From assembly GCA_964016885.1 (NCBI GenBank), contig OZ024759.1, positions 30,566,001-30,630,000 of the forward strand: 64,000 nt of DNA. The letters run 5' to 3'. The stretch comes from Eledone cirrhosa (Eukaryota). Both the position numbers and the translations under genes were made by a program. Of this stretch, positions 1 to 53,192 are shown piece after piece. The notes beneath the pieces were generated by a model that had not been told where the DNA came from, made no database searches, and saw only the letters and a list, made by a program, of their open reading frames with translations. The first letter of the stretch is position 1. The number at the start of each line of letters is the position of its first letter.

Positions 1-1178
1 CTGATCATCCTTTCTGTTCACAATCTCTTTCTTTCTCTCTCTCTCTCTCTCTCTGATCACCCTCTCTGGTCTCTCTCTCTCTCTCTCTCTCTTTCTTCTC
101 TATCTATCTATATCTCGCTCTGTTCATCCTCTCTCTCTCTCTCTCTCTATGTCTCTATTTCTCTTCTCCTTTCTTAATTTACATGTCTTGCCCTTGATTA
201 CACATCCTATTATTAAATTTGGGAGTTTTAAATATCTCAACGCTATAAAAATGCCTTAAAATCAAGACTAAACGACGAACGCTCTATCTGAATAATCCGT
301 AATTGTATTCTGTAAGAAATACATCACATATTCGCTGGCCTATGGAGCAGCCATTGAAAGATAATAAACGGAATTTACAAAACCATCTGCGTCTATAGAT
401 ATTTCTACATTCACTTTCATTCCAATGGCTTTTATCTCGACTATTTTTAAATTGACTTAAATTAGAAGCTTTTAGATGTCGGATCCAGGCACAGCAAATC
501 GGTATAGGTTTAAATAAATAGTTTGGCCAAACAACCTTATAGACAATGGAAAAGGTCTCGTCTTGAAATACCAGGCCATTTATAGAAATACAGCATATGT
601 GAAGTAGATGGTGAATATTCTCCATTATAATGTTATTATTCGCATTCAATCAGTAAAGATGATGACTTTACAGAAATGGTAAAACGCAGATTGGATTATA
701 TGAACTAGTTCACTTCTTTATTTATTTTTTTTTTTTCTCCTTCAATATGGATGCATCGTGATAGAATGGGTAAGAAGTCTTCTTCGAAATCTGATAATAT
801 TGCCGAGATTTTCTGCAAGATCGGAACGTCAGCAGCCCCACTGAAGAACGAGCCTTGCGAAATGGGATGACTGTTAAGCGGGTTTCGCTGACAATTGTCC
901 TCGGAAATAATTTTGCAGTTTTATCCTCGGCGCGCAGCCCCAACAACACCGCGCCCTACACCCAGTGTTCATCACTCCCTCCCCTTACCTCTCCTTTTCT
1001 TCTGTGGCCCTAGCTAGAGTCCTTGCTCTCCTCCACCCTTTCCTCTCCGTTATGACTTTTATAGTCCTTTCCTCAACTTTCCCACACAGATCTGCCTTTC
1101 TCCACATATTTCCCCATTTGTAATGTTATTTATACAATTGTAAATCAAATTTATTTGTCGGTTGTTCAATCTCATTAC

Positions 1179-1233
<55 letters not shown>

Positions 1234-1380
1234 ATGTACGTATTGTATATTTAATATACGGGGTGTTTAACAATAACAACACACACACATATGTATATGT
1301 GTGTGTGTGTGTGTTGTGTGTGTTGTTGTTATTGTTATTATTGTGTGCTATTATTATTATTGTGTGTTATTATTATTGTG

Positions 1381-1428
<48 letters not shown>

Positions 1429-1716
1429 CATTGTATCCTCACTACTGCTCTTCACCACCGCCTCCTCCAAATCTATCAGTTTGAAATATTCTAATCACCA
1501 CACCAAAGTAACGGTCATTCCTTGTACTTACCTGTATTTACCTGATTCTGTATATCCTGTGGTTCCTCTTCATTTTGTTTTGACTTTTCAATACTGCAAC
1601 CGTTACCAAAGCAACCAGTTAGTTTCCTTTCAATCTTCTTCGTCAACTTCCATTATCTTATACGTCCACTCCTTGATCTTTCATCACAAATCTAATCTCC
1701 TACTACATTCCACCCG

Positions 1717-1917
1717 TCTTCTTCTTCTTCTTCTTCTTCTTCTTCTTCTTCTTCTTCTTCTTCTTCTTCTTCTTCTTCTTCTTCTTCTTCTTCTTCTTCT
1801 TCTTCTTCTTCTTCTTCTTCTTCTTCTTCTTCTTCTTCTTCTTCTTCTTCTTCTTCTTCTTCGCCCACTTATTCCTGAGAGGGTCGTGGGGGAAGAGTCC
1901 TCAAACACTTCTTCGAG

Positions 1918-1920
<3 letters not shown>
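1717..1920 (-). mobile_element. RTE-clade LINE 3' end with (GAA)n tail
   Basis: Minus strand GAAGTGTTTGAGGACTCTTCCCCCACGACCCTCTCAGGAATAAGTGGGCG then (AAG)n 1717-1862; same terminus as 13470-13520, 22950-22992 and 41097-41140. Confidence 0.8.
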
Positions 1921-1957
<37 letters not shown>

Positions 1958-2306
1958 GTCTAAAGTGTGTATATACAGCACAGGGCTACCACTAACATCA
2001 ACACCAGAACTACAATCACAACCACTCCATCAAGATTTGGAGTCTGAAGGAATAATATTAATGAACTCTGTCATAAAGGAGATATGATATAATTGAAAAG
2101 AAACAACAGCGTAGCATAACAGCACACAAAAATTGACACAAATCATTAAACAATAATCATATAACGAGGTAATAATTAAATAATGAGATATAAATAGAAT
2201 TATGTGAGATAGAAAAAAATATACAATAGATTTAAATTATATTGCACAACAATATATAAAGTGCATTGCAAAAATAATCTATAAAAATACTGTATTGATT
2301 AGCGAA

Positions 2307-2361
<55 letters not shown>

Positions 2362-2364
<3 letters not shown>

Positions 2365-2555
2365 GGAACAAATAAGACCCCGACGGCTGAGCTCAAGCCG
2401 TTTCGACGGCTAATTCTGTACAGAATTAGCCGTCGAAACGGCTTGAGCTCAGCCGTCGGGGTCTTATTTGTTCCTATTACCCACTCTACTACCCTAAGTA
2501 TTGAGTACTTTGGTGCGTTATGGTCCACCTGGTTCCTTACCACATTTCCTTCGTT
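2362..2555 (+). mobile_element. Hairpin+tail element family A (PLE pLTR-like), perfect 116-bp palindrome plus 78-bp tail, in (TA)n
   Basis: 2362-2477 is a perfect palindrome centred on CTGT|ACAG; right arm has GAA-ACGGC-(TTGAGCTCA)-GCCGT-C, the 3' half of a hammerhead (stem III plus GUC); tail 2478-2555 is conserved in other copies. Confidence 0.85.
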
Positions 2556-2684
2556 ATATATATATATATATATATATGTGTGTATGTGTTTGTATGTATG
2601 CATATATATCTGCATATGTATATATATGTATGTATTTATATATGCATATATATATGCATATATGTATATATAGATGTGTATGTG

Positions 2685-2739
<55 letters not shown>

Positions 2740-2750
2740 GTGTGTGTTTG

Positions 2751-2835
2751 TATTGGGTCATCAAGTATGAAATTTGTAGAAATCTGTTTGTTTTTTTCTA
2801 GAAATTTCTAGAAATTTCATACTTGACGACCCAAT
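2751..2835. repeat. Short inverted repeat (~33-bp arms) between microsatellites
   Basis: TATTGGGTCATCAAGTATGAAATT...AATTTCATACTTGACGACCCAATA. Confidence 0.7.
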
Positions 2836-3095
2836 ATATATATTTATATATCTATCTATATGTAATCATATGGAGCGCTTGCCAGCATGACTCGTAATCG
2901 CGTTGCGTTTCGCTTATTTCTACCCGCCGAAATACGATTCTCGCTGAATTTATATTGAAATACTAGAGTGTGTTGGAGTTAAACACCCTCTTCGTATTAT
3001 AGAAATGACAGTAAAGGTATACCTCAATGTAATTAAACAGAGCCGAAGAATTATGAAAATAAACCAAACAAGCCTTCAATACATCAAAAGTCTTT

Positions 3096-3141
3096 ATTAG
3101 CCAACAATGTTTCGTCCTATTAAGGACTCATCAGGGCAATT
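3096..3141 (-). ncRNA. Minimal type I hammerhead ribozyme
   Basis: Minus strand ATTGCC-CTGATGA-GTCC-TTAATA-GGAC-GAA-ACATTGT-T-GGCTAAT, followed by AATAAA. Confidence 0.8.
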
Positions 3142-3400
3142 AAAGCTATAAGAAGCACTATTATTTTCATATTTTCATAATATATATACTTATATACTTT
3201 ATATATATATATAGATATATATATAAACGGAGAACATTGTTTAAAGGTAGAAATGTATTTACTATACATATTATATTAGAAAGAACTTAAGAAATTTCGT
3301 AAAAATTACGTAAAAATTAAATTATTATAGTGTACGCAATGATACGTGGAGAAAAATATGATAAACGTTATAAATAGAACGAATTATAATAATGATGATG

Positions 3401-3437
<37 letters not shown>

Positions 3438-3440
3438 TAA

Positions 3441-3750
3441 TTGAGAACTAAAACAATACCAGTGGTTGTAGGCGCTCTGGGAATGATACCTAAGGGGTCT
3501 AATGATTACTTATCGCAAATCCCAGCCAACCCGGGTATAGGAGAAATACAAAAGATAGTACTAATGGGAACTGCCCATATACTAAGGAAAATGATGTCAA
3601 TATAAGTACATCACAAGTCTAAACACTAAAGATGCATGTGTGAGTATGTATGTTCTTTCTTGAACATGGCGGACCTTGTTGTCTCTTGAGGTCACTGGTT
3701 GTGACTTGGTGATAACTCGTATGAACATAAAGCAAGATAAATGCAACTGT
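3441..3750 (+). mobile_element. R4/Dong-like LINE 3' end fragment in (TAA)n
   Basis: Translates LRTKTIPVVVGALGMIPKG...EIQKIVLMGTAHILRKMMSI*, the RLE C-terminus; flanked by (TAA)n at 3386-3440 and 3751-3766. Confidence 0.8.
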
Positions 3751-3766
3751 AATAATAATAATAATA

Positions 3767-4616
3767 AAGGAGAAAGTGCAACCTTCATGAAAAATCCCTT
3801 CATAGTACCTTCTTTGAGAAAACTGAATTTAGAGATCCACAAACATGGAACTGGTTGAAAAGAGGAGACCTTAAAAAGGCTACAGAAGGAATGCTAATGA
3901 CTGCGCATGAGCAGGCCCTCAAAACGAAGTGGCTGAAACACCATATTTACAAGGAGGAGGCTAGCCCACTGTGTTGGATCTGTGGAGTGAGAGAGGAGAC
4001 TGTGGCTCATATTGTATCCGAGTGTAAACACCTAGCCCAGACTCACTAAAAAGGCTGGAAACATGATGTGATGGGCAGGGTGATCCACTGGCACCTATGT
4101 AAAGTAAACAATTTACCACATTCTGAGAAGTGGTATGAGCATAAGCCAGAGTCGCTGATAGAACACGATCAGGTGAAGGTGCTGTGGGATTTTAGGATAC
4201 AGACGGACAAGAAACTGGAACACAATAGACCTGACCTGGTGGTTTTGGACAAGGAAAAAAGATCGTGCCTGATTGTGGATGTAGCCTGCCCATTCGACAC
4301 GAGAGTGCAAGAGAAGGAGAAAATTAACCGATACCAGGACTTAAAGTGGGAGGTAAAAAGGATTTGGAACTGCCATGAAGTCAAGGTGGTCCCGATTGTC
4401 ATAGGCGCACTAGGTACTATCTCAAAGAGTTTCCAAGGATGGTTAAAGAGAATGGTCCAGCCCCGCTTTTTGGGACACTTCAAAAGGCATGCTTGCTGGA
4501 AACAGCAAGAACCTTCCGATACGTCCTGAATATCTGAGGCTGCAGGTAGGGGCTTGATATTCATTTCAACAAACTTTCCAGTTAAATAACATCCATGACT
4601 GAGACTCAAAGAACAA
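3767..4616 (+). mobile_element. R4/Dong-like non-LTR retrotransposon, 5'-truncated and disrupted (CCHC knuckle plus restriction-like endonuclease)
   Basis: ORFs 3855-4049 and 4068-4529: CWICGVREETVAHIVSEC zinc knuckle, KHD, LWDFRIQTD, NRPDLVV..IVDVACP..KINRY, PIVIGALG; in-frame stop 4047-4049; flanked by (TAA)n. Confidence 0.92.
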
Positions 4617-7980: not shown

Positions 7981-7984
<4 letters not shown>

Positions 7985-8540
7985 TGTTATACTTTGCGAG
8001 GGTCATGTTGCCAATAAGAACACACGCACCAGTTGCTTTCACTTCAATTTATTATAATAAATTTATAAATTTCCGGTTGGTTGGTTGGTTGGTTCCACAA
8101 CCAGATGGTTGTTTATATATTGTGAAAGTTCTTTCGTCACACATTCTGTGACCTCTTCAGTGACTGCGGGTTCTTTTCTTTGTTCTTTTGTGCCTCTCCT
8201 TTGTTCTGTCCTACGCCATGAAGATGGCGTAGGACAGAACAAAGGAGAGGCACAAAAAAACAACAACAAAAAACAAAGAAAAGAACCCCAGTCACTGGAG
8301 AGGTCACAGAATGTGTGACGAAAGAACTTTGACAATATATAAACAACCATCTGGTTGTGGAACCAACCAACCAACCGGAAATTTATAAATTCCTAATTTT
8401 ATAAATTTATTATAATAAATTGAAGTGAAAGAACTGGTGCGTGTGTTCTTATTGGCAACATGACCCTCCCAAAGTATAACAATATGGGTTTCAACACACG
8501 TTTTCAGATAAAGAATCTTGCTAAACAAATTCAGAAACGA
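7981..8540 (+). mobile_element. Hairpin+tail element family B, ~505-bp palindrome with hammerhead in both arms
   Basis: Arms 7981-8219 and 8224-8485, loop GAAG; hammerhead 8290-8334 (+, core mutated to CTGGAGA) and mirror near 8123-8166 (-, CTGAAGA); tail 8486-8540. Confidence 0.9.
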
Positions 8541-11439: not shown

Positions 11440-11765
11440 TAAAGATTAAACAAGGTTCAATGAATAAATCAAAGAATTAGTTTTACAATAGATTGGAAGC
11501 ACTCAACTGTATTTGGTTTTCCGGAGTTATAATATTAATTCTAAATATTAACAAAAATAGATCTTCTTGTGATCAAGTATATTTTATTATACATATTTCA
11601 GAGGTACTGAGCTAACTTCAACAATACGTCCTCATCAGATAAAATAAGATGATGCATGACATACCTTGACATAGTAGATGGTTAAGATCCATGACCTCTG
11701 AAATATGTATAATAAAATATACTTGATCACAAGAAGATCTATTTTTGTTAATATTTTGAATTAAT
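11440..11765 (-). mobile_element. Hairpin+tail element family E (~73-bp arms, ~88-bp spacer) with degenerate hammerhead
   Basis: 11533-11605 inverted to 11694-11765; minus strand CTGATGAGG...CCTCTGAAATATGTA at 11590-11638; tail to the left contains TTGAGTGCT on minus strand. Confidence 0.7.
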
Positions 11766-21320: not shown

Positions 21321-21614
21321 AAATGTATATATATATATTGCGCTGTGACCCGTCTTCTCTCTCCCTCTTCTTACCTATTTCGTTACTATCTACTCTTCCC
21401 CCTCTTTCTTCCTCTCCCTCTCTGCTTCTCACTTTCACTCACCCTCTCTCTGCCTGCCACCTCATTGTTTCCATCACCTTTATCTTTAAAGCGTTGAAAT
21501 ATCCGAGAGCCCCCAGTAGATACCTAATGAGGACCCCCCCCCCCCCCCGCCCGTTCTTGCTTTCTTCTTATCTCATTCCATTTTAAAGACTATGTATATA
21601 TATATATATATATA

Positions 21615-21900
21615 CGTTATTCCGGGTTTAGTCGGAGGTAACCACAGTAAGTAAGGTACTCAATACATTGCAGAGTATAACAGTTTTAATATAGATGAGA
21701 TTCTACAGGACCAGAACTGTTTCATTCTTTAGAAATCATCAGGAATATAAGCATAGTGGCCACTTCTGACTGGTGGCGCCCCGTTGTAACATGCAATTAA
21801 CGGTTCATGTTAGAACATGTTATCACCTGTTAGTATAAGACAGTACAGGTGTAGTAAGGTCAACACACCTGCATATGACATTTTAACTATGAACTATTTC
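21615..21900 (-). mobile_element. Family C element, longer copy without inverted arm; hammerhead at 21700-21746
   Basis: Tail matches 31224-31290; minus strand ATTC-CTGATGA-TTTCTAAAGAAT-GAA-ACAG-TTCTGGTC-CTGT-A-GAAT; upstream boundary uncertain. Confidence 0.8.
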
Positions 21901-21923
21901 CACGAACGTTATGAAGCCCCCTC

Positions 21924-21962
<39 letters not shown>

Positions 21963-22203: not shown

Positions 22204-22211
<8 letters not shown>

Positions 22212-22559
22212 ACACTTTGGGAGGGTCATGTTGCCAATAAGAAACACACGCACCAGTTGCTTTCACTTCAATTTATTATATATTTATAAATTTATAAATT
22301 TCTGGTTGGTTGGTTGGTTCCACAACCAGATAGTTGTTTATATATAGTCATAGTTCTTTCGTCACACACTGACGAAAGAACTATGACTATATATAAACAA
22401 CCAGAAATTTATAAATTTATAAATATATAATAAATTGAAGTGAAAGCAACTGGTGCGTGTGTTTCTTATTGGCAACATGACCCTCCCAAAGTGTAACAAT
22501 ATCGGTTTCAACACACGATTTCAGATAAAGAATCTTGCTAAACAAATTCAGAAACGAAA
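22204..22559 (+). mobile_element. Family B hairpin+tail, fold-back point inside hammerhead stem II
   Basis: Centre CGTCA-CACAC-TGACG; arms 22204-22502; same tail as the 7981 and 46972 copies. Confidence 0.9.
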
Positions 22560-27544: not shown

Positions 27545-27730
27545 GTGAATTGGCAGTATCGGTAGAGGGTCGGACGCCATGCTTTGAAGCAAAGAGTTAC
27601 GGACCTTTATGGACTGAGTTCAAATCCCGCCGCGGTTAACTTTGCCTTTCATCCTTACGAGGTCGATAAAATAAAGTACCAGTAATGTACTGGAAAAATT
27701 GCTGGCCTTGTGCCAAAAGTAAAACAATTA
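27545..27730 (+). mobile_element. SINE S1 copy (left member of tail-to-tail pair)
   Basis: Full head, central domain and tail. Confidence 0.9.
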
Positions 27731-27736
27731 TATAAT

Positions 27737-27924
27737 AATTGCTTCTACTTTTGGCACAAGGCCAGCAATTCCCAGTACATTACTGGTACTTTATTTTATC
27801 GACCCCGTAAGGATGAAAGGCAAAGTTAACCTCGGCGGGATTTGAACTCAGATCGTAAAGGGACGTAACTACGCTGGAAAGCATGGCGTCCGACCCTCTA
27901 CCGATACTGCCAATTCACCGCCTC
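27737..27924 (-). mobile_element. SINE S1 copy (right member of tail-to-tail pair)
   Basis: Full-length reverse complement beginning GAGGCGGTGAATTGGCAG. Confidence 0.9.
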
Positions 27925-30710: not shown

Positions 30711-30995
30711 GTGAGTATAGTCCAGATGCTATATAGGGCATTCAATAATACAAAGGTCACATTTTATGATATGTAAATAATTCCAATTTTATTGCCGTAA
30801 ATAAATAATTACAGATATGCAGATCTGATTGGGGCGATGTTTAATATCTGTAGACATGGTGACATTTATAAGATTTTTGCTCGATCTTCTGCCGGGTGGC
30901 TTTTTGCCCTTAAAATCTGTCCAGTGTTTGAAATTCGTGTTCTTGTGGGCTCTTTCGGGCCCTGGATTCTTTCTTTTGAAGCATATATATATATA

Positions 30996-31089
<94 letters not shown>

Positions 31090-31093
<4 letters not shown>

Positions 31094-31289
31094 TTAATAT
31101 AGATGAGATTCTACACGACTAGAACTGTTTCATTCTTTAGAAATCATCAGGAATCTTGATTCCTGATGATTTCTAAAGAATGAAACAGTTCTAGTCCTGT
31201 AGAATCTCATCTATATTAAAACTTTTATACTCTGCTATGTATTGAGTACCTTACTTACTGTGGTTACCTCCGATTCAACCCGGAATAAC

Positions 31290-31290
<1 letters not shown>
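31090..31290 (+). mobile_element. Family C hairpin+tail element, 134-bp palindrome
   Basis: 31090-31223 centred on GAATC-TT-GATTC, one arm mismatch; tail to 31290; (TA)n on both sides. Confidence 0.9.
31158..31206 (+). ncRNA. Complete type I hammerhead ribozyme
   Basis: GATTC-CTGATGA-T-TTC-TAAA-GAA-T-GAA-ACAG-TTCTAGTC-CTGT-A-GAATC; all three stems pair, GUA site at 31199-31201. Confidence 0.85.
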
Positions 31291-31361
<71 letters not shown>

Positions 31362-33348: not shown

Positions 33349-33560
33349 CATTATCCATCTATATAAATATATATAAATACGTATATATCTTTATCATATA
33401 TAGAAATGATTTCTGCAGGACTATACGAGTATTGAGTACTTTTTGAAACTGTTTTCAAATGGTTACTTTCACCTAAAATTCTTCCATTATAATTTTATTT
33501 GGGGACAATCATTAAGTTATGTTCCAAATACCAGTTTAATAATGTCAACATTATTTCTTC
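32958..33560. repeat. Local duplication, copy 1 (paralogous to 40821-41095)
   Basis: CGTTAAAGGGAAAGACGATGAATCTTTGTGAGATTACATTTG and ~180 bp downstream shared; internal (TA)n expanded here. Confidence 0.85.
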
Positions 33561-33736
33561 TTCTTTTCCACCATTTTGGATAATTATATCTGTTCCATTT
33601 TGGACTTTCGAGGTTGCTTGTTGTCACCCATCCACCACCAGCTTCTCTTCTTTATCATCACCATCGTCATCATCATCATCATCATCATCACCATCATCAC
33701 CATCATCACCACCATGTTCATTGTCATTACCATCAT

Positions 33737-40820: not shown

Positions 40821-41095
40821 CGTTAAAGGGAAAGACGATGAATCTTTGTGAGATTACATTTGTTCATATATATATATGACACATATAATATATAATACAC
40901 ACATATAAATATATATAAATATATATATTACTTTATCATTTATAGAAACGAATTCTGCAGGATATTGAATATCTTTTGTAACTGTTTTCAAATGATTACT
41001 TTCACCTGAAATCCTCCCATTGTAATTTTATTTGTAGACATTCATTAAGTTATGTTCCAAATTCCAGTTTAATAATGGCAAAATTATTTATTTTT
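40821..41095. repeat. Local duplication, copy 2
   Basis: Direct repeat of 32958-33560. Confidence 0.85.
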
Positions 41096-41096
41096 C

Positions 41097-41562
41097 TTCG
41101 CCCATTTATTACTGAGAAGATCGTATAGGCAGAGTCCTCAAACGTTCCTTCCAGCGGGCCATGTCAGAAGCATCCAACCATCTCCCACTGATCGGGCTGG
41201 ATTCGCCAAGCGAGACCAGCCATGCTCGCAGTCTACGTCTGCATCTTCTGCCGGTTGGTTTTGCGTGTAAAATCTGTCCAGCGATTCTTTCCTGAGATAT
41301 TCTAACTACATGCCCATAGTATCAGAGCTGTTATCTATCAATTCGGAGAAGTAGCCGCTCTACCTAGAGCAACTCTCCAGTGATTCTTTCCTGAGATATT
41401 CTAACCACATGCCCATAGTATCGGAGCAGTGATCTCTCAATTCTGAGAAGTAGTAACTTTAACTGATGTGACTCTCTAATTACCGGGCTACAGATCTCTC
41501 CAAAATTCGTTCTTGTGACATTCTAACCACATATCGATAGTATCGGAGCTGTGATCTCTCAT
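41097..41562 (-). mobile_element. RTE LINE 3' fragment with internal triplication
   Basis: TTCTAACCACATGCCCATAGTATC-like unit near 41300, 41399 and 41521; RTE terminus at 41097-41140. Confidence 0.8.
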
Positions 41563-46111: not shown

Positions 46112-46911
46112 TATCTATCTATCTAAGGCGGGTAGAATTCCCGATATCCATGGACGAGTTCTCTCCAGCGGTCTCTGTCCCTCATTATCGCTGCCATATC
46201 CTGCATCTCCAACAGACCAGTGTCTGTCCTTAGGGCATCAACATATGTTAACCTTGGTCTTCCTCTTGTAGTGTGTCCATGTAGGGGCTCCCAAAGGAGC
46301 ACTGAGTGCAATGTCAACTCTGGATGTCGGTGAGCATGTCCAGCCAACCTCAGTCTCCTCTGTGTCACTTTTGAGCTGACTTTTGGGATGCTCCCATACA
46401 GCTCTGAGTTTTTCATCCTCAGTGTATACTGATTAATGTTCAGAGCCATCCTCAGCATTCTCGTGTAGCACCCATCCACCATCTGAGTGAGTCTCTTGGT
46501 CAGTGTCCAAGTCTCAGACCCATACAGCAGCACAGACTCCACTACAGCAATGAAGAGGCGGATTTTCAGGTCTCTACGAAGGTCCGACTTCCACACCGAT
46601 CTCAAGCTGTGGCACGCCGCCCAGGCCTTGCTCTTCCTCTCAACCACATCATCTTCCGTATTCCCAATCTTTGCTCCCAAATACAGGAAGTCCTCAACCA
46701 ATTCCAGCGGCTTCCCGCCTACATTAGTGATCTCCTCTGGCTTCTCAACATTCTCTACCAGATATTTTGTTTTAGTCTCGGTATCGGATGCTGAATTTGC
46801 CGACGACATAGTTTTGGTGACAAATACAGTGAAGGAGGCAGAGGATTTGATGCGGGAGGTTGAGACTGTGTCGATGAGTGTGGGGCTGAGAATGGATGAG
46901 ACTAAAACAAA

Positions 46912-46912
<1 letters not shown>
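46112..46912 (-). mobile_element. RTE-group LINE, 5'-truncated with 5' inversion; uninterrupted RT C-terminal frame
   Basis: Minus 46123-46779: [49 protein letters not shown]; plus 46780-46912: EFADDIVLV..VGLRMDETKTK; short (TAGA)n tail. Confidence 0.92.
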
Positions 46913-46971
<59 letters not shown>

Positions 46972-46979
<8 letters not shown>

Positions 46980-47560
46980 ATACTTTGGGAGGGTCATGTT
47001 GCCAATAAGAAACACACGCACCAGTTGCTTTCACTTCAATTTAATTTAATATATATTTATAAATTTACAAATTTATAAATTTCTGGTTGGTTGGTTGGTT
47101 CCACAACCAGATAGTTGTTTATATATATATAGTCATAGTTCTTTCGTCACACACTCTGTGACCTCTTCAGTGACTGGGGATTTCTTTCTTCGTTTCTGTG
47201 CCTTTCCTTTCTTCTATCCTACGCCATTTTGTTTGACACACACAAACAAAATGGCGTAGGATAGAAGAAAGGAAAGGCACAGAAACGAAGAAAGAAATCC
47301 CCAGTCACTGAAGAGGTCACAGAGTGTGTGACGAAAGAACTATGACTATATATATATAAACAACTATCTGGTTGTGGAACCAACCAACCAACCAGAAATT
47401 TATAAATTTGTAAATTTATAAATATATATTAAATTAAATTGAAGTGAAAGCAACTGGTGCGTGTGTTTCTTATTGGCAACATGACCCTCCCAAAGTATAA
47501 CAATATCGGTTTCAACACACGATTTCAGATAAAGAACCTTGCTAAACAAATTCAGAAACG

Positions 47561-50196: not shown

Positions 50197-50198
<2 letters not shown>

Positions 50199-50269
50199 TT
50201 TTAATATAGATCTGCTATGTATTGAGTATCTTACTTACTGTGGTTACCTCCGATTCAACCCGGAATAAC

Positions 50270-50270
<1 letters not shown>
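50197..50270 (+). mobile_element. Family C collapsed copy
   Basis: AGTTTTAATATAGA (arm start) fused to tail TCTGCTATGTATTGAGTA...CCCGGAATAACG. Confidence 0.8.
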
Positions 50271-52959: not shown

Positions 52960-53192
52960 TGATGTGGCTTCTTTTGTTGTCATAGTATTTCCGTAGGATG
53001 GGGTAAAGGAAAGGAGAGTGCTCTATGTAAGCTACAGAGGTATTTAGTTATGTAATAAACAACATAAAACAATTATTCCATTTACCAAAGGTTTCAGGAA
53101 GACAGACGTGATCTGAAATCCGAGCTCGTCTGTCTTCGTGAAAACCTTTGGTAAATGGAATAATTGTTCCATCATGTTTTATATTACATAAC

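What the first reader, a model, noticed from the sequence alone, without database searches (positions are those of the whole stretch)
31090..31290. Family C: complete three-stem hammerhead whose 5' edge coincides with the hairpin apex
Seen: the ribozyme begins at 31158, right after the TT loop, so the copy was truncated at the 5' strand of stem I. Three structural states coexist: non-inverted longer copy (21615), hairpin (31090) and collapsed (50197). Inference: ribozyme structure stalls RT or nucleates fold-back. This is the best candidate for a first activity test.
Basis: partly seen in the sequence, partly recalled or inferred. Interest (0 to 1): 0.7.

Follow-up and report, generated by a model that had tools for sequence, protein, structure and literature searches.

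The report
Penelope-type fold-back carrying hammerhead motif
This 201-base hairpin-shaped insert is two head-to-head copies of the end of an abundant repeat, likely a Penelope-like jumping gene, and it carries a hammerhead ribozyme motif that is predicted to fold poorly alone; the hairpin's tip does sit at the edge of the motif, but that looks more like coincidence than cause, so this is likely an ordinary case of a known insertion pattern.

Summary
The hairpin (66-bp arms, 2-nt loop, one mismatch) and a type I hammerhead motif at 31158-31206 with GUA ending at 31201 are real. The layout of inverted tail-less arm, direct arm, one-sided 67-nt tail and (TA)n flanks matches the published inverted-pLTR insertions of Penelope-like elements (PLEs). 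No linked RT was found, so membership rests on layout. Reads from the same species label show an abundant family with a variable loop II, no listed change in the core, a likely compensatory stem I change and a palindromic loop III, which fits a conserved ribozyme that likely works as a dimer. A cause for the apex position is not supported. About 90% of the counted reads continue past stem I, other junctions lie elsewhere, and an RT copying sense RNA has already opened stem I on reaching 31158. A few junctions do fit fold-back at stem II, and self-priming at palindromes was proposed in 2013. Tandem double copies seen in the reads would be a better one.

The parts
30984..31089 (.). (TA)n target microsatellite, left flank (one interruption); hides any target-site duplication
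31090..31155 (-). Inverted, tail-less arm; its outer end is a recurring family boundary (same start in the 50197 copy; 429 and 546 reads end there against TA/CA repeat)
   Evidence: table 7
31106..31156 (-). Second hammerhead motif on the minus strand: 6-bp stem I, stem III weakened by the change at 31116
31156..31157 (.). TT apex; 31156 fits the commonest upstream family base, 31157 does not (by eye)
   Evidence: tables 5c, 7
31158..31223 (+). Direct arm (end of the likely pLTR)
31158..31206 (+). Type I hammerhead motif: 5-bp stem I, CUGAUGA, 3-bp stem II closed by U.U, GAAA, 4-bp stem III with an 8-nt loop holding palindromic CUAG, predicted cut after A31201
   Evidence: family variation
31224..31290 (+). 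One-sided 67-nt tail; shares an 11-nt motif with the tails of family A copies
31291..31358 (.). (TA)n, right flank
21615..21925 (-). Non-inverted family copy: tail, hammerhead motif at 21700-21746 with 4-bp stem I and a private loop III change (21712), then 180 nt of rare upstream sequence
50197..50270 (+). Short family copy: 15-nt inverted arm joined to the last 59 nt of the tail; no ribozyme

Best explanation
This is a head-to-head fold-back of the end of an abundant hammerhead-bearing repeat inside a (TA)n microsatellite, likely left by a 5'-truncated insertion of a Penelope-like retroelement, and its turn point likely fell at the edge of stem I without the ribozyme causing it. Shown: the arms, one-sided tail, flanks, recurring outer ends and family-wide conservation pattern. 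Inferred steps: (1) an element-encoded GIY-YIG/RT protein supplied in trans nicks AT-rich DNA and starts reverse transcription at two internal sites of the RNA, 67 nt apart (31290 and 31223), as shown in vitro for anole Poseidon; (2) the template was not cut by this ribozyme, because both arms keep the core upstream of the cut site; (3) synthesis ended after about 133 nt and the cDNA end snapped back, or a second cDNA from the same RNA was joined to it, giving near-symmetric arms; (4) the ribozyme lies only 17-66 nt inside the tail-less end, so any short inverted arm ends in or beside it. In the parent RNA the ribozyme likely cuts weakly and as a dimer through its palindromic loop III. In this copy any read-through transcript is predicted to form a long duplex and not to cleave.
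For: Layout matches the PLE insertions described in PMC8557442 (passages): adjacent inverted 5'-truncated copy, one-sided tail, (TA)n bias. PMC3846280 describes an inverted pLTR with a tail on one side. Two RT start sites explain the tail, and uncleaved RNA is the main substrate (PMC11167929). The same layout recurs in window families A and B with different turn points: family B turns at about -57/-60, -65 and +18 relative to its core. Reads: microsatellite-abutting ends at 21682 (429, 546 reads) and 21617 (429, 502). Of the 40 variant rows shown (64 not shown), six fall on the four loop II positions at 9-30% of X6 reads, and none on CUGAUGA, GAAA, stem II or stem III. CUAG is in about 99% of reads. 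The stem I 3' change at 21700 (17% of reads) has a matching 5' base in the loose-end consensus behind 21745 (not phased). Helix III duplex between two molecules -12.8 vs -1.4 kcal/mol as a hairpin. A natural type I hammerhead with U.U at the base of helix II cuts 22% in 1 h as a monomer and much better as a dimer (PMC7229834, passage). About 90% of counted reads pass stem I without a listed turn.
Against: No RT or GIY-YIG is linked to the family: Pfam found none in the 145 of 289 candidate peptides scanned, only weak RT-related hits of another type, and no genome is held. The tail (67 nt) is longer than the published 30-40 nt. Rfam gives no hammerhead at its gathering score (best 13.6 bits, E 1.2; 14.3 bits). 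Against pure coincidence: 3 of the 11 listed strand-switch joints have both ends at 21742-21746; one fits stem II fold-back exactly; none of 11 family A copies includes a CUGANGA half; and the 21615 copy leaves the common upstream sequence at the same edge. Read counts are not locus counts (RAD-seq; 8 joints and 335 loose-end rows not shown), and turns further upstream are invisible.
Confidence: 0.72

Rival explanations
1. Same element, but ribozyme structure steers where fold-backs happen: the nascent cDNA self-primes at stem II, or RT stops at helices held in trans in a dimer, so turn points cluster on the ribozyme.
For: Joint 21724/21734 spans stem II with 3-4 ambiguous letters. Family B copy 22208 turns in stem II. 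Family A inverted arms all end between -22 and +10 of GAAA, none reaching a CUGANGA. One contig has an arm ending at 21703, the first base after the cut site. Self-priming at junction palindromes is proposed in PMC3846280.
Against: The ribozyme fills almost the whole detectable range (arms of at least about 20 nt, homology ends at 21746), so clustering is built in. Most reads pass through. Family C stem II does not fold on its own (0.0 kcal/mol). Two of three family B turns lie about 60 nt upstream. The family A reference reached only -23. The geometry does not fit this apex.
Confidence: 0.15
2. The boundary at the stem I edge is an RNA-processing site, likely a 3' splice acceptor as in D. virilis Penelope; the 21615 copy would be a spliced form, and the apex would reflect a processed RNA end.
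For: Both main loose-end consensuses behind 21745/21746 place CAG right before the last four bases of the stem I 5' strand, one after a U-rich tract (by eye). The 21615 copy departs exactly there. PMC4209133 reports the Penelope intron ending at the 5' end of helix I.
Against: The AG also serves as stem I pairing. Consensus agreement is only 0.5-0.6. The putative exon next to 21746 has depth under 1 in reads. The apex lies 1-2 nt inside the AG, not at the junction. No splice donor was seen.
Confidence: 0.07
3. The family is a non-autonomous retrozyme-like tandem unit of about 77-78 nt plus tail, likely mobilised in trans, rather than the end of a coding PLE.
For: 'Goes back 58-62' joints with 10-20 linking letters: 91 reads in X6, 35 in X7, and contigs in X1. 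Retrozymes are reported to derive from PLE pLTRs (10.64898/2026.07.22.740005, abstract and introduction).
Against: Tandem joints are a small share of reads. Most copies have at least 80 nt of other upstream sequence. Partial tandems are a normal PLE product. The three window copies are solitary.
Confidence: 0.05
4. The hairpin is an assembly or amplification artefact.
For: It is flanked by long (TA)n runs, and this locus was not itself spanned by a read.
Against: The arms differ at one base, the tail is one-sided, the same layout occurs in other families, and the same joint type appears in raw reads of two other samples.
Confidence: 0.01

Closest known systems
Insertions of endonuclease-bearing Penelope-like elements (Penelope/Poseidon, Neptune, Nematis, Hydra): inverted 5'-truncated pLTR, one-sided tail, microsatellite targets (PMC8557442 passages; PMC3846280 passages and Discussion)
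   Same: Head-to-head inverted copy without tail, direct copy with tail, (TA)n flanks, strong 5' truncation, partial tandems, hammerhead in the terminal repeat
   Different: Tail of 67 nt rather than 30-40; no ORF linked, so the clade is unknown
Poseidon PAc of Anolis carolinensis (PMC11167929, parts 1-2 of 4 read)
   Same: Two recurring 3' ends that would match two RT start sites; AT-rich target; core retained, as expected from uncleaved template
   Different: The PAc ORF starts in stem II; here both ATGs in the motif meet a stop within 5 codons (read by eye); PAc activity is measured, this is not
PLE hammerheads, minimal and large-helix-III variants (PMC4209133, parts 1-2 of 4 read)
   Same: Type I, short helix I (4-6 bp), palindromic loop III, dispersed single copies, opposite-strand pairs
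   Different: Helix II is short (3 bp) instead of 7-8 bp and lacks G10.1-C11.1; helix III is longer than in metazoan min-HHRs
Axolotl HHR_Amex2 in non-LTR retrozymes (PMC7229834, passages)
   Same: Type I hammerhead with U.U at the base of helix II, weak as a monomer and better as a dimer
   Different: Amex2 lies in 350-bp tandem repeats expressed as circles; no arrays or RNA are shown here

Membership tests
Penelope-like element (EN+) | ORF with telomerase-like RT and GIY-YIG endonuclease linked to the repeat | tested here: inconclusive
   None in 145 of 289 window peptides; no genome held; collection scans gave no true homolog
Penelope-like element (EN+) | Adjacent inverted 5'-truncated terminal repeat | tested here: met
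Penelope-like element (EN+) | One-sided tail extension (published 30-40 nt) | tested here: met
   Present and recurring but 67 nt long
Penelope-like element (EN+) | Type I hammerhead in the terminal repeat | tested here: met
Penelope-like element (EN+) | Target-site duplication or AT-microsatellite target | tested here: inconclusive
   All three copies lie in (TA)n, which hides a duplication
Hammerhead ribozyme, type I | Core CUGANGA, GAAA, NUH with three helices | tested here: met
   0 hits in 200 shuffles; no core variant among the 40 rows shown
Hammerhead ribozyme, type I | Usual G10.1-C11.1 pair closing helix II (common, not universal) | tested here: not met
   U.U here; natural precedent in PMC7229834
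Hammerhead ribozyme, type I | Rfam hammerhead model at gathering score | tested here: not met
   Best 13.6 bits vs 48.5, E 1.2; 14.3 vs 75
Hammerhead ribozyme, type I | Covariation in helices | tested here: inconclusive
   One likely A-U to C-G change in stem I, not phased in single reads
Hammerhead ribozyme, type I | Self-cleavage at the predicted site | not testable with these tools
   Needs an in vitro assay
Non-LTR retrozyme | Tandem 170-400-nt units, each with a type I hammerhead | tested here: not met
   Window copies are solitary; reads show some 77-78-nt tandem pairs of unknown array length
Non-LTR retrozyme | Expressed as linear and circular RNA | not testable with these tools
   Needs RNA data for this species

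The most novel reading that the evidence does not exclude
The ribozyme, though dispensable for insertion as a cutter, acts as a structural template: the RT snaps back at ribozyme helices (stem II above all), so the many genomic hairpins record where the enzyme meets RNA structure in vivo. The same family also produces 77-78-nt tandem double hammerheads that pair through a palindromic loop III and could be among the smallest retrozyme-like units.
Probability: 0.15. Interest if true: 0.5.

Novelty: new member of a known kind. Interest (0 to 1): 0.2.

Why it matters
As it stands, this adds one more likely PLE family with an unusual hammerhead (weak U.U-closed helix II, longer palindromic helix III) and a longer tail. 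How PLEs make inverted ends and what their ribozymes do are stated as open questions (PMC8557442). A genome this rich in such hairpins could test whether turn points follow RNA structure, but this single locus does not answer it.

Tried and rejected
Whole-genome mapping of turn points: no genome held. Expression: no RNA holder listed, which is no evidence either way. Collection scans: 0 matches in metagenome contigs and viral contigs; 1 match in a Bacteroidetes MAG (L001), rejected as chance because no stem III or stem I follows and it lies just upstream of a short ORF. Rfam miRNA hits reflect only the long hairpin. The repeat finder was swamped by microsatellites. Earlier findings by place, by sequence and by the long word list gave nothing. 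Stem I self-priming as the cause of this apex: rejected, it would skip the core. Run-off from a self-cleaved RNA: rejected for this copy, the apex is 44 nt upstream of the cut. 'Collapse' of a hairpin as the origin of 50197: not shown; joints that keep a long arm and restart in the tail (21668-21673) fit primary asymmetric insertions as well, though subfamily divergence at 21669 confounds them. Joints ending at 21726-21727 were not used as turn positions, because variable loop II can clip alignments there. Window copies 33389 and 40931 as family C relatives: weak (11 and 49 of 2000 shuffles reach the score). The host looks like a cephalopod from its microsatellite load (recalled, no call). The O. 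vulgaris repeat library of PMC13282606 is on Zenodo and could not be read; its supplement was listed, not opened, so the family may already be catalogued there. Literature on ribozyme-set turn points: one search found 0 papers, only PMC3846280, and none on this point in their listings.

Full report
Observation. The insert at 31090-31290 lies between two (TA)n runs. It consists of 66-nt inverted arms (31090-31155 and 31158-31223) with a TT loop and one mismatch, followed by a 67-nt tail on the right only. The right arm starts with a type I hammerhead motif: stem I 31158-62/31202-06, CUGAUGA 31163-69, stem II 31171-73/31178-80 closed by U.U, GAAA 31182-85, stem III 31185-88/31197-200, and GUA ending at 31201. 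My descriptor found 6 such motifs in the window and none in any of 200 local shuffles; three of the six are family C, so they are not independent. Rfam does not call it: best hammerhead scores are 13.6 bits (E 1.2) and 14.3 bits. The left arm carries the same motif on the minus strand, with a mismatch in stem III. The copies at 21615 (minus strand, no inverted arm) and 50197 (15-nt inverted arm plus 59 nt of tail) are as described.

What it is. The layout is the one published for Penelope-like elements: an adjacent inverted 5'-truncated copy, a tail at one end only, microsatellite targets and a hammerhead in the pseudo-LTR (PMC8557442, 12 of 22 passages seen; PMC3846280, 8 passages and Discussion; PMC4209133, parts 1-2 of 4). 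For anole Poseidon, the tail is the stretch between two internal RT start sites, both target strands are extended, and uncleaved RNA is the main template (PMC11167929, parts 1-2 of 4). Window families A (11 copies examined) and B (3 copies) have the same layout with tails of about 76 and 56 nt. Family A shares an 11-nt tail motif with family C: 11 matches at one mismatch, against a mean of 2.5 in shuffles. No PLE protein was found: I scanned 145 of 289 candidate peptides with Pfam and got only weak hits, none to GIY-YIG. No genome is held. The PLE assignment therefore rests on layout and ribozyme. Eight AI notes from other genomes reached similar verdicts; they are not independent evidence.

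Family data. I laid 4 of the 8 listed runs (two contig sets, two RAD-seq raw-read runs, all with one species label) on 21613-21927. Raw-read depth is about 900-3500 over 21613-21744 and under 1 at 21756-21766. The shared block therefore ends at the stem I edge of this reference, and the extra 180 nt of the 21615 copy are rare. Reads end against microsatellite at two recurring places, 21682 (429 and 546 reads) and 21617 (429 and 502), which are the tail-less and tailed ends. Among the 40 variant rows shown (64 not shown), six are on the four loop II positions (9-30% of X6 reads) and none on CUGAUGA, GAAA, stem II or stem III. The palindromic CUAG of loop III is in about 99% of reads. A change at 21700 (17% of reads) has a complementary base in the consensus that follows 21745, a likely A-U to C-G swap that I could not phase. 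Read by eye, the commonest upstream consensus (agreement about 0.6) extends stem I to 6 bp and offers 8 nt complementary to 31214-31221. The natural ribozyme may thus have a distal helix, and this copy would be cut inside stem I rather than at the ribozyme's edge. I did not fold this.

Activity. As a monomer, 31158-31206 has a predicted probability of 1e-3 for its three stems (no tertiary contacts modelled). Stem II alone does not fold, unlike 6 of the 7 other window cores tested. Helix III is predicted to be far more stable between two molecules (-12.8 vs -1.4 kcal/mol), which fits the dimer model of PMC4209133. A natural ribozyme with U.U at this position cuts 22% in an hour as a monomer and much better as a dimer (PMC7229834, 12 of 29 passages seen). 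Reads show tandem pairs with a period of about 77-78 nt (91 and 35 reads); these are better test material.

Does the ribozyme set the turn? For this apex, probably not. The chance of landing within 1 nt of this landmark is 1-4%, but 12-63% for any helix end or the cut site. Of 23 joints, 15 were shown and 11 of these switch strand. They carry 140 reads in X6 and 131 in X7, against 1391 and 1518 reads that run on past stem I into other sequence. Joints with both ends at 21742-21746 carry 52 and 49 reads, about 3%, and include any turn slightly upstream, because homology ends there. These are read counts from reduced-representation libraries, not locus counts, and turns further upstream are invisible. 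Geometry (inference): an RT on sense RNA meets a helix at its 3' strand and has opened stem I by 31158; self-priming through stem I would drop the core; run-off from cleaved RNA would put the apex at 31202. The near-symmetry of several window hairpins at different positions (loops of 0, 2, 4, 5 and 7 nt) suggests the two arms are made in a coupled way, by snap-back or from one RNA.

Evidence on the other side. One joint spans stem II exactly (21724/21734, 27 reads, 1 contig); family B copy 22208 turns in stem II, while its two sisters turn about 60 nt upstream; no family A copy reaches a CUGANGA (its GAAA-helix III-GUC half was assigned by eye, and the reference reached only -23); one contig arm ends at the first base after the cut site. 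Self-priming at junction palindromes is already proposed. I found no paper mapping turn points onto ribozyme helices. A CAG just before stem I in both main upstream consensuses recalls the D. virilis intron end and remains an untested lead.

Verdict. A real and ordinary fold-back insertion of a likely PLE family with a conserved but atypical hammerhead. The causal reading is unproven and unlikely for this apex, and the proposed construct should not be used. New member of a known kind; interest 0.2.

Noticed in passing
reads laid on window 21613-21927 (joints 21746 to 21685-21689): Tandem same-strand double hammerheads with a period of about 77-78 nt and 10-20 linking letters of varying length; array length unknown. 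Natural candidates for dimeric activity.
   Followed up: partly
window 2365, 5504, 7813, 17950, 31490, 49480, 51060, 57588, 57835, 58936, 59092: Family A: eleven copies with what looks like the 3' half of a hammerhead (GAAA, 6-bp helix III with a palindromic loop, GUC). None includes the CUGANGA half; two restart at nearly the same place in the tail (+67, +70).
   Followed up: partly
window 7984-8539, 22208-22556, 46972-47560: Family B fold-backs with a minimal hammerhead. Two turn within about 8 nt of each other, about 60 nt upstream of the core (possibly an RNA 5' end); one turns in stem II.
   Followed up: partly
reads behind window 21745/21746 (table 7): Two divergent upstream consensuses both put CAG directly before the last four bases of the stem I 5' strand and share a 6-nt motif 14-18 nt further up: possible splice acceptor or distal helix.
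   Followed up: no
window 3134 (-), 17604 (+), 20800 (-), 31769 (+), 39250 (-), 53619 (+), 841 (+): Further hammerhead-like cores from other repeat families. 3134 and 20800 have 5-bp stem II, and 20800 passes the full descriptor with a 7-bp stem I.
   Followed up: no
window 33389-33565 and 40931-41098: Two related inserts (84% alike) that may be distant family C relatives with a short inverted arm ending in helix III; alignment support is weak.
   Followed up: partly
window 11539-11760, 27545-27918, 53047-53192: Three more diverged fold-back repeats; the 27545 family has several other copies in the window. No hammerhead assigned.
   Followed up: no
window 46123-47008 and 3768-4529: Fragments that look like non-LTR retrotransposon ORFs (weak RVT_1, DUF6451 and zf-RVT hits, all below the curated cut-offs); not linked to family C.
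   Followed up: no
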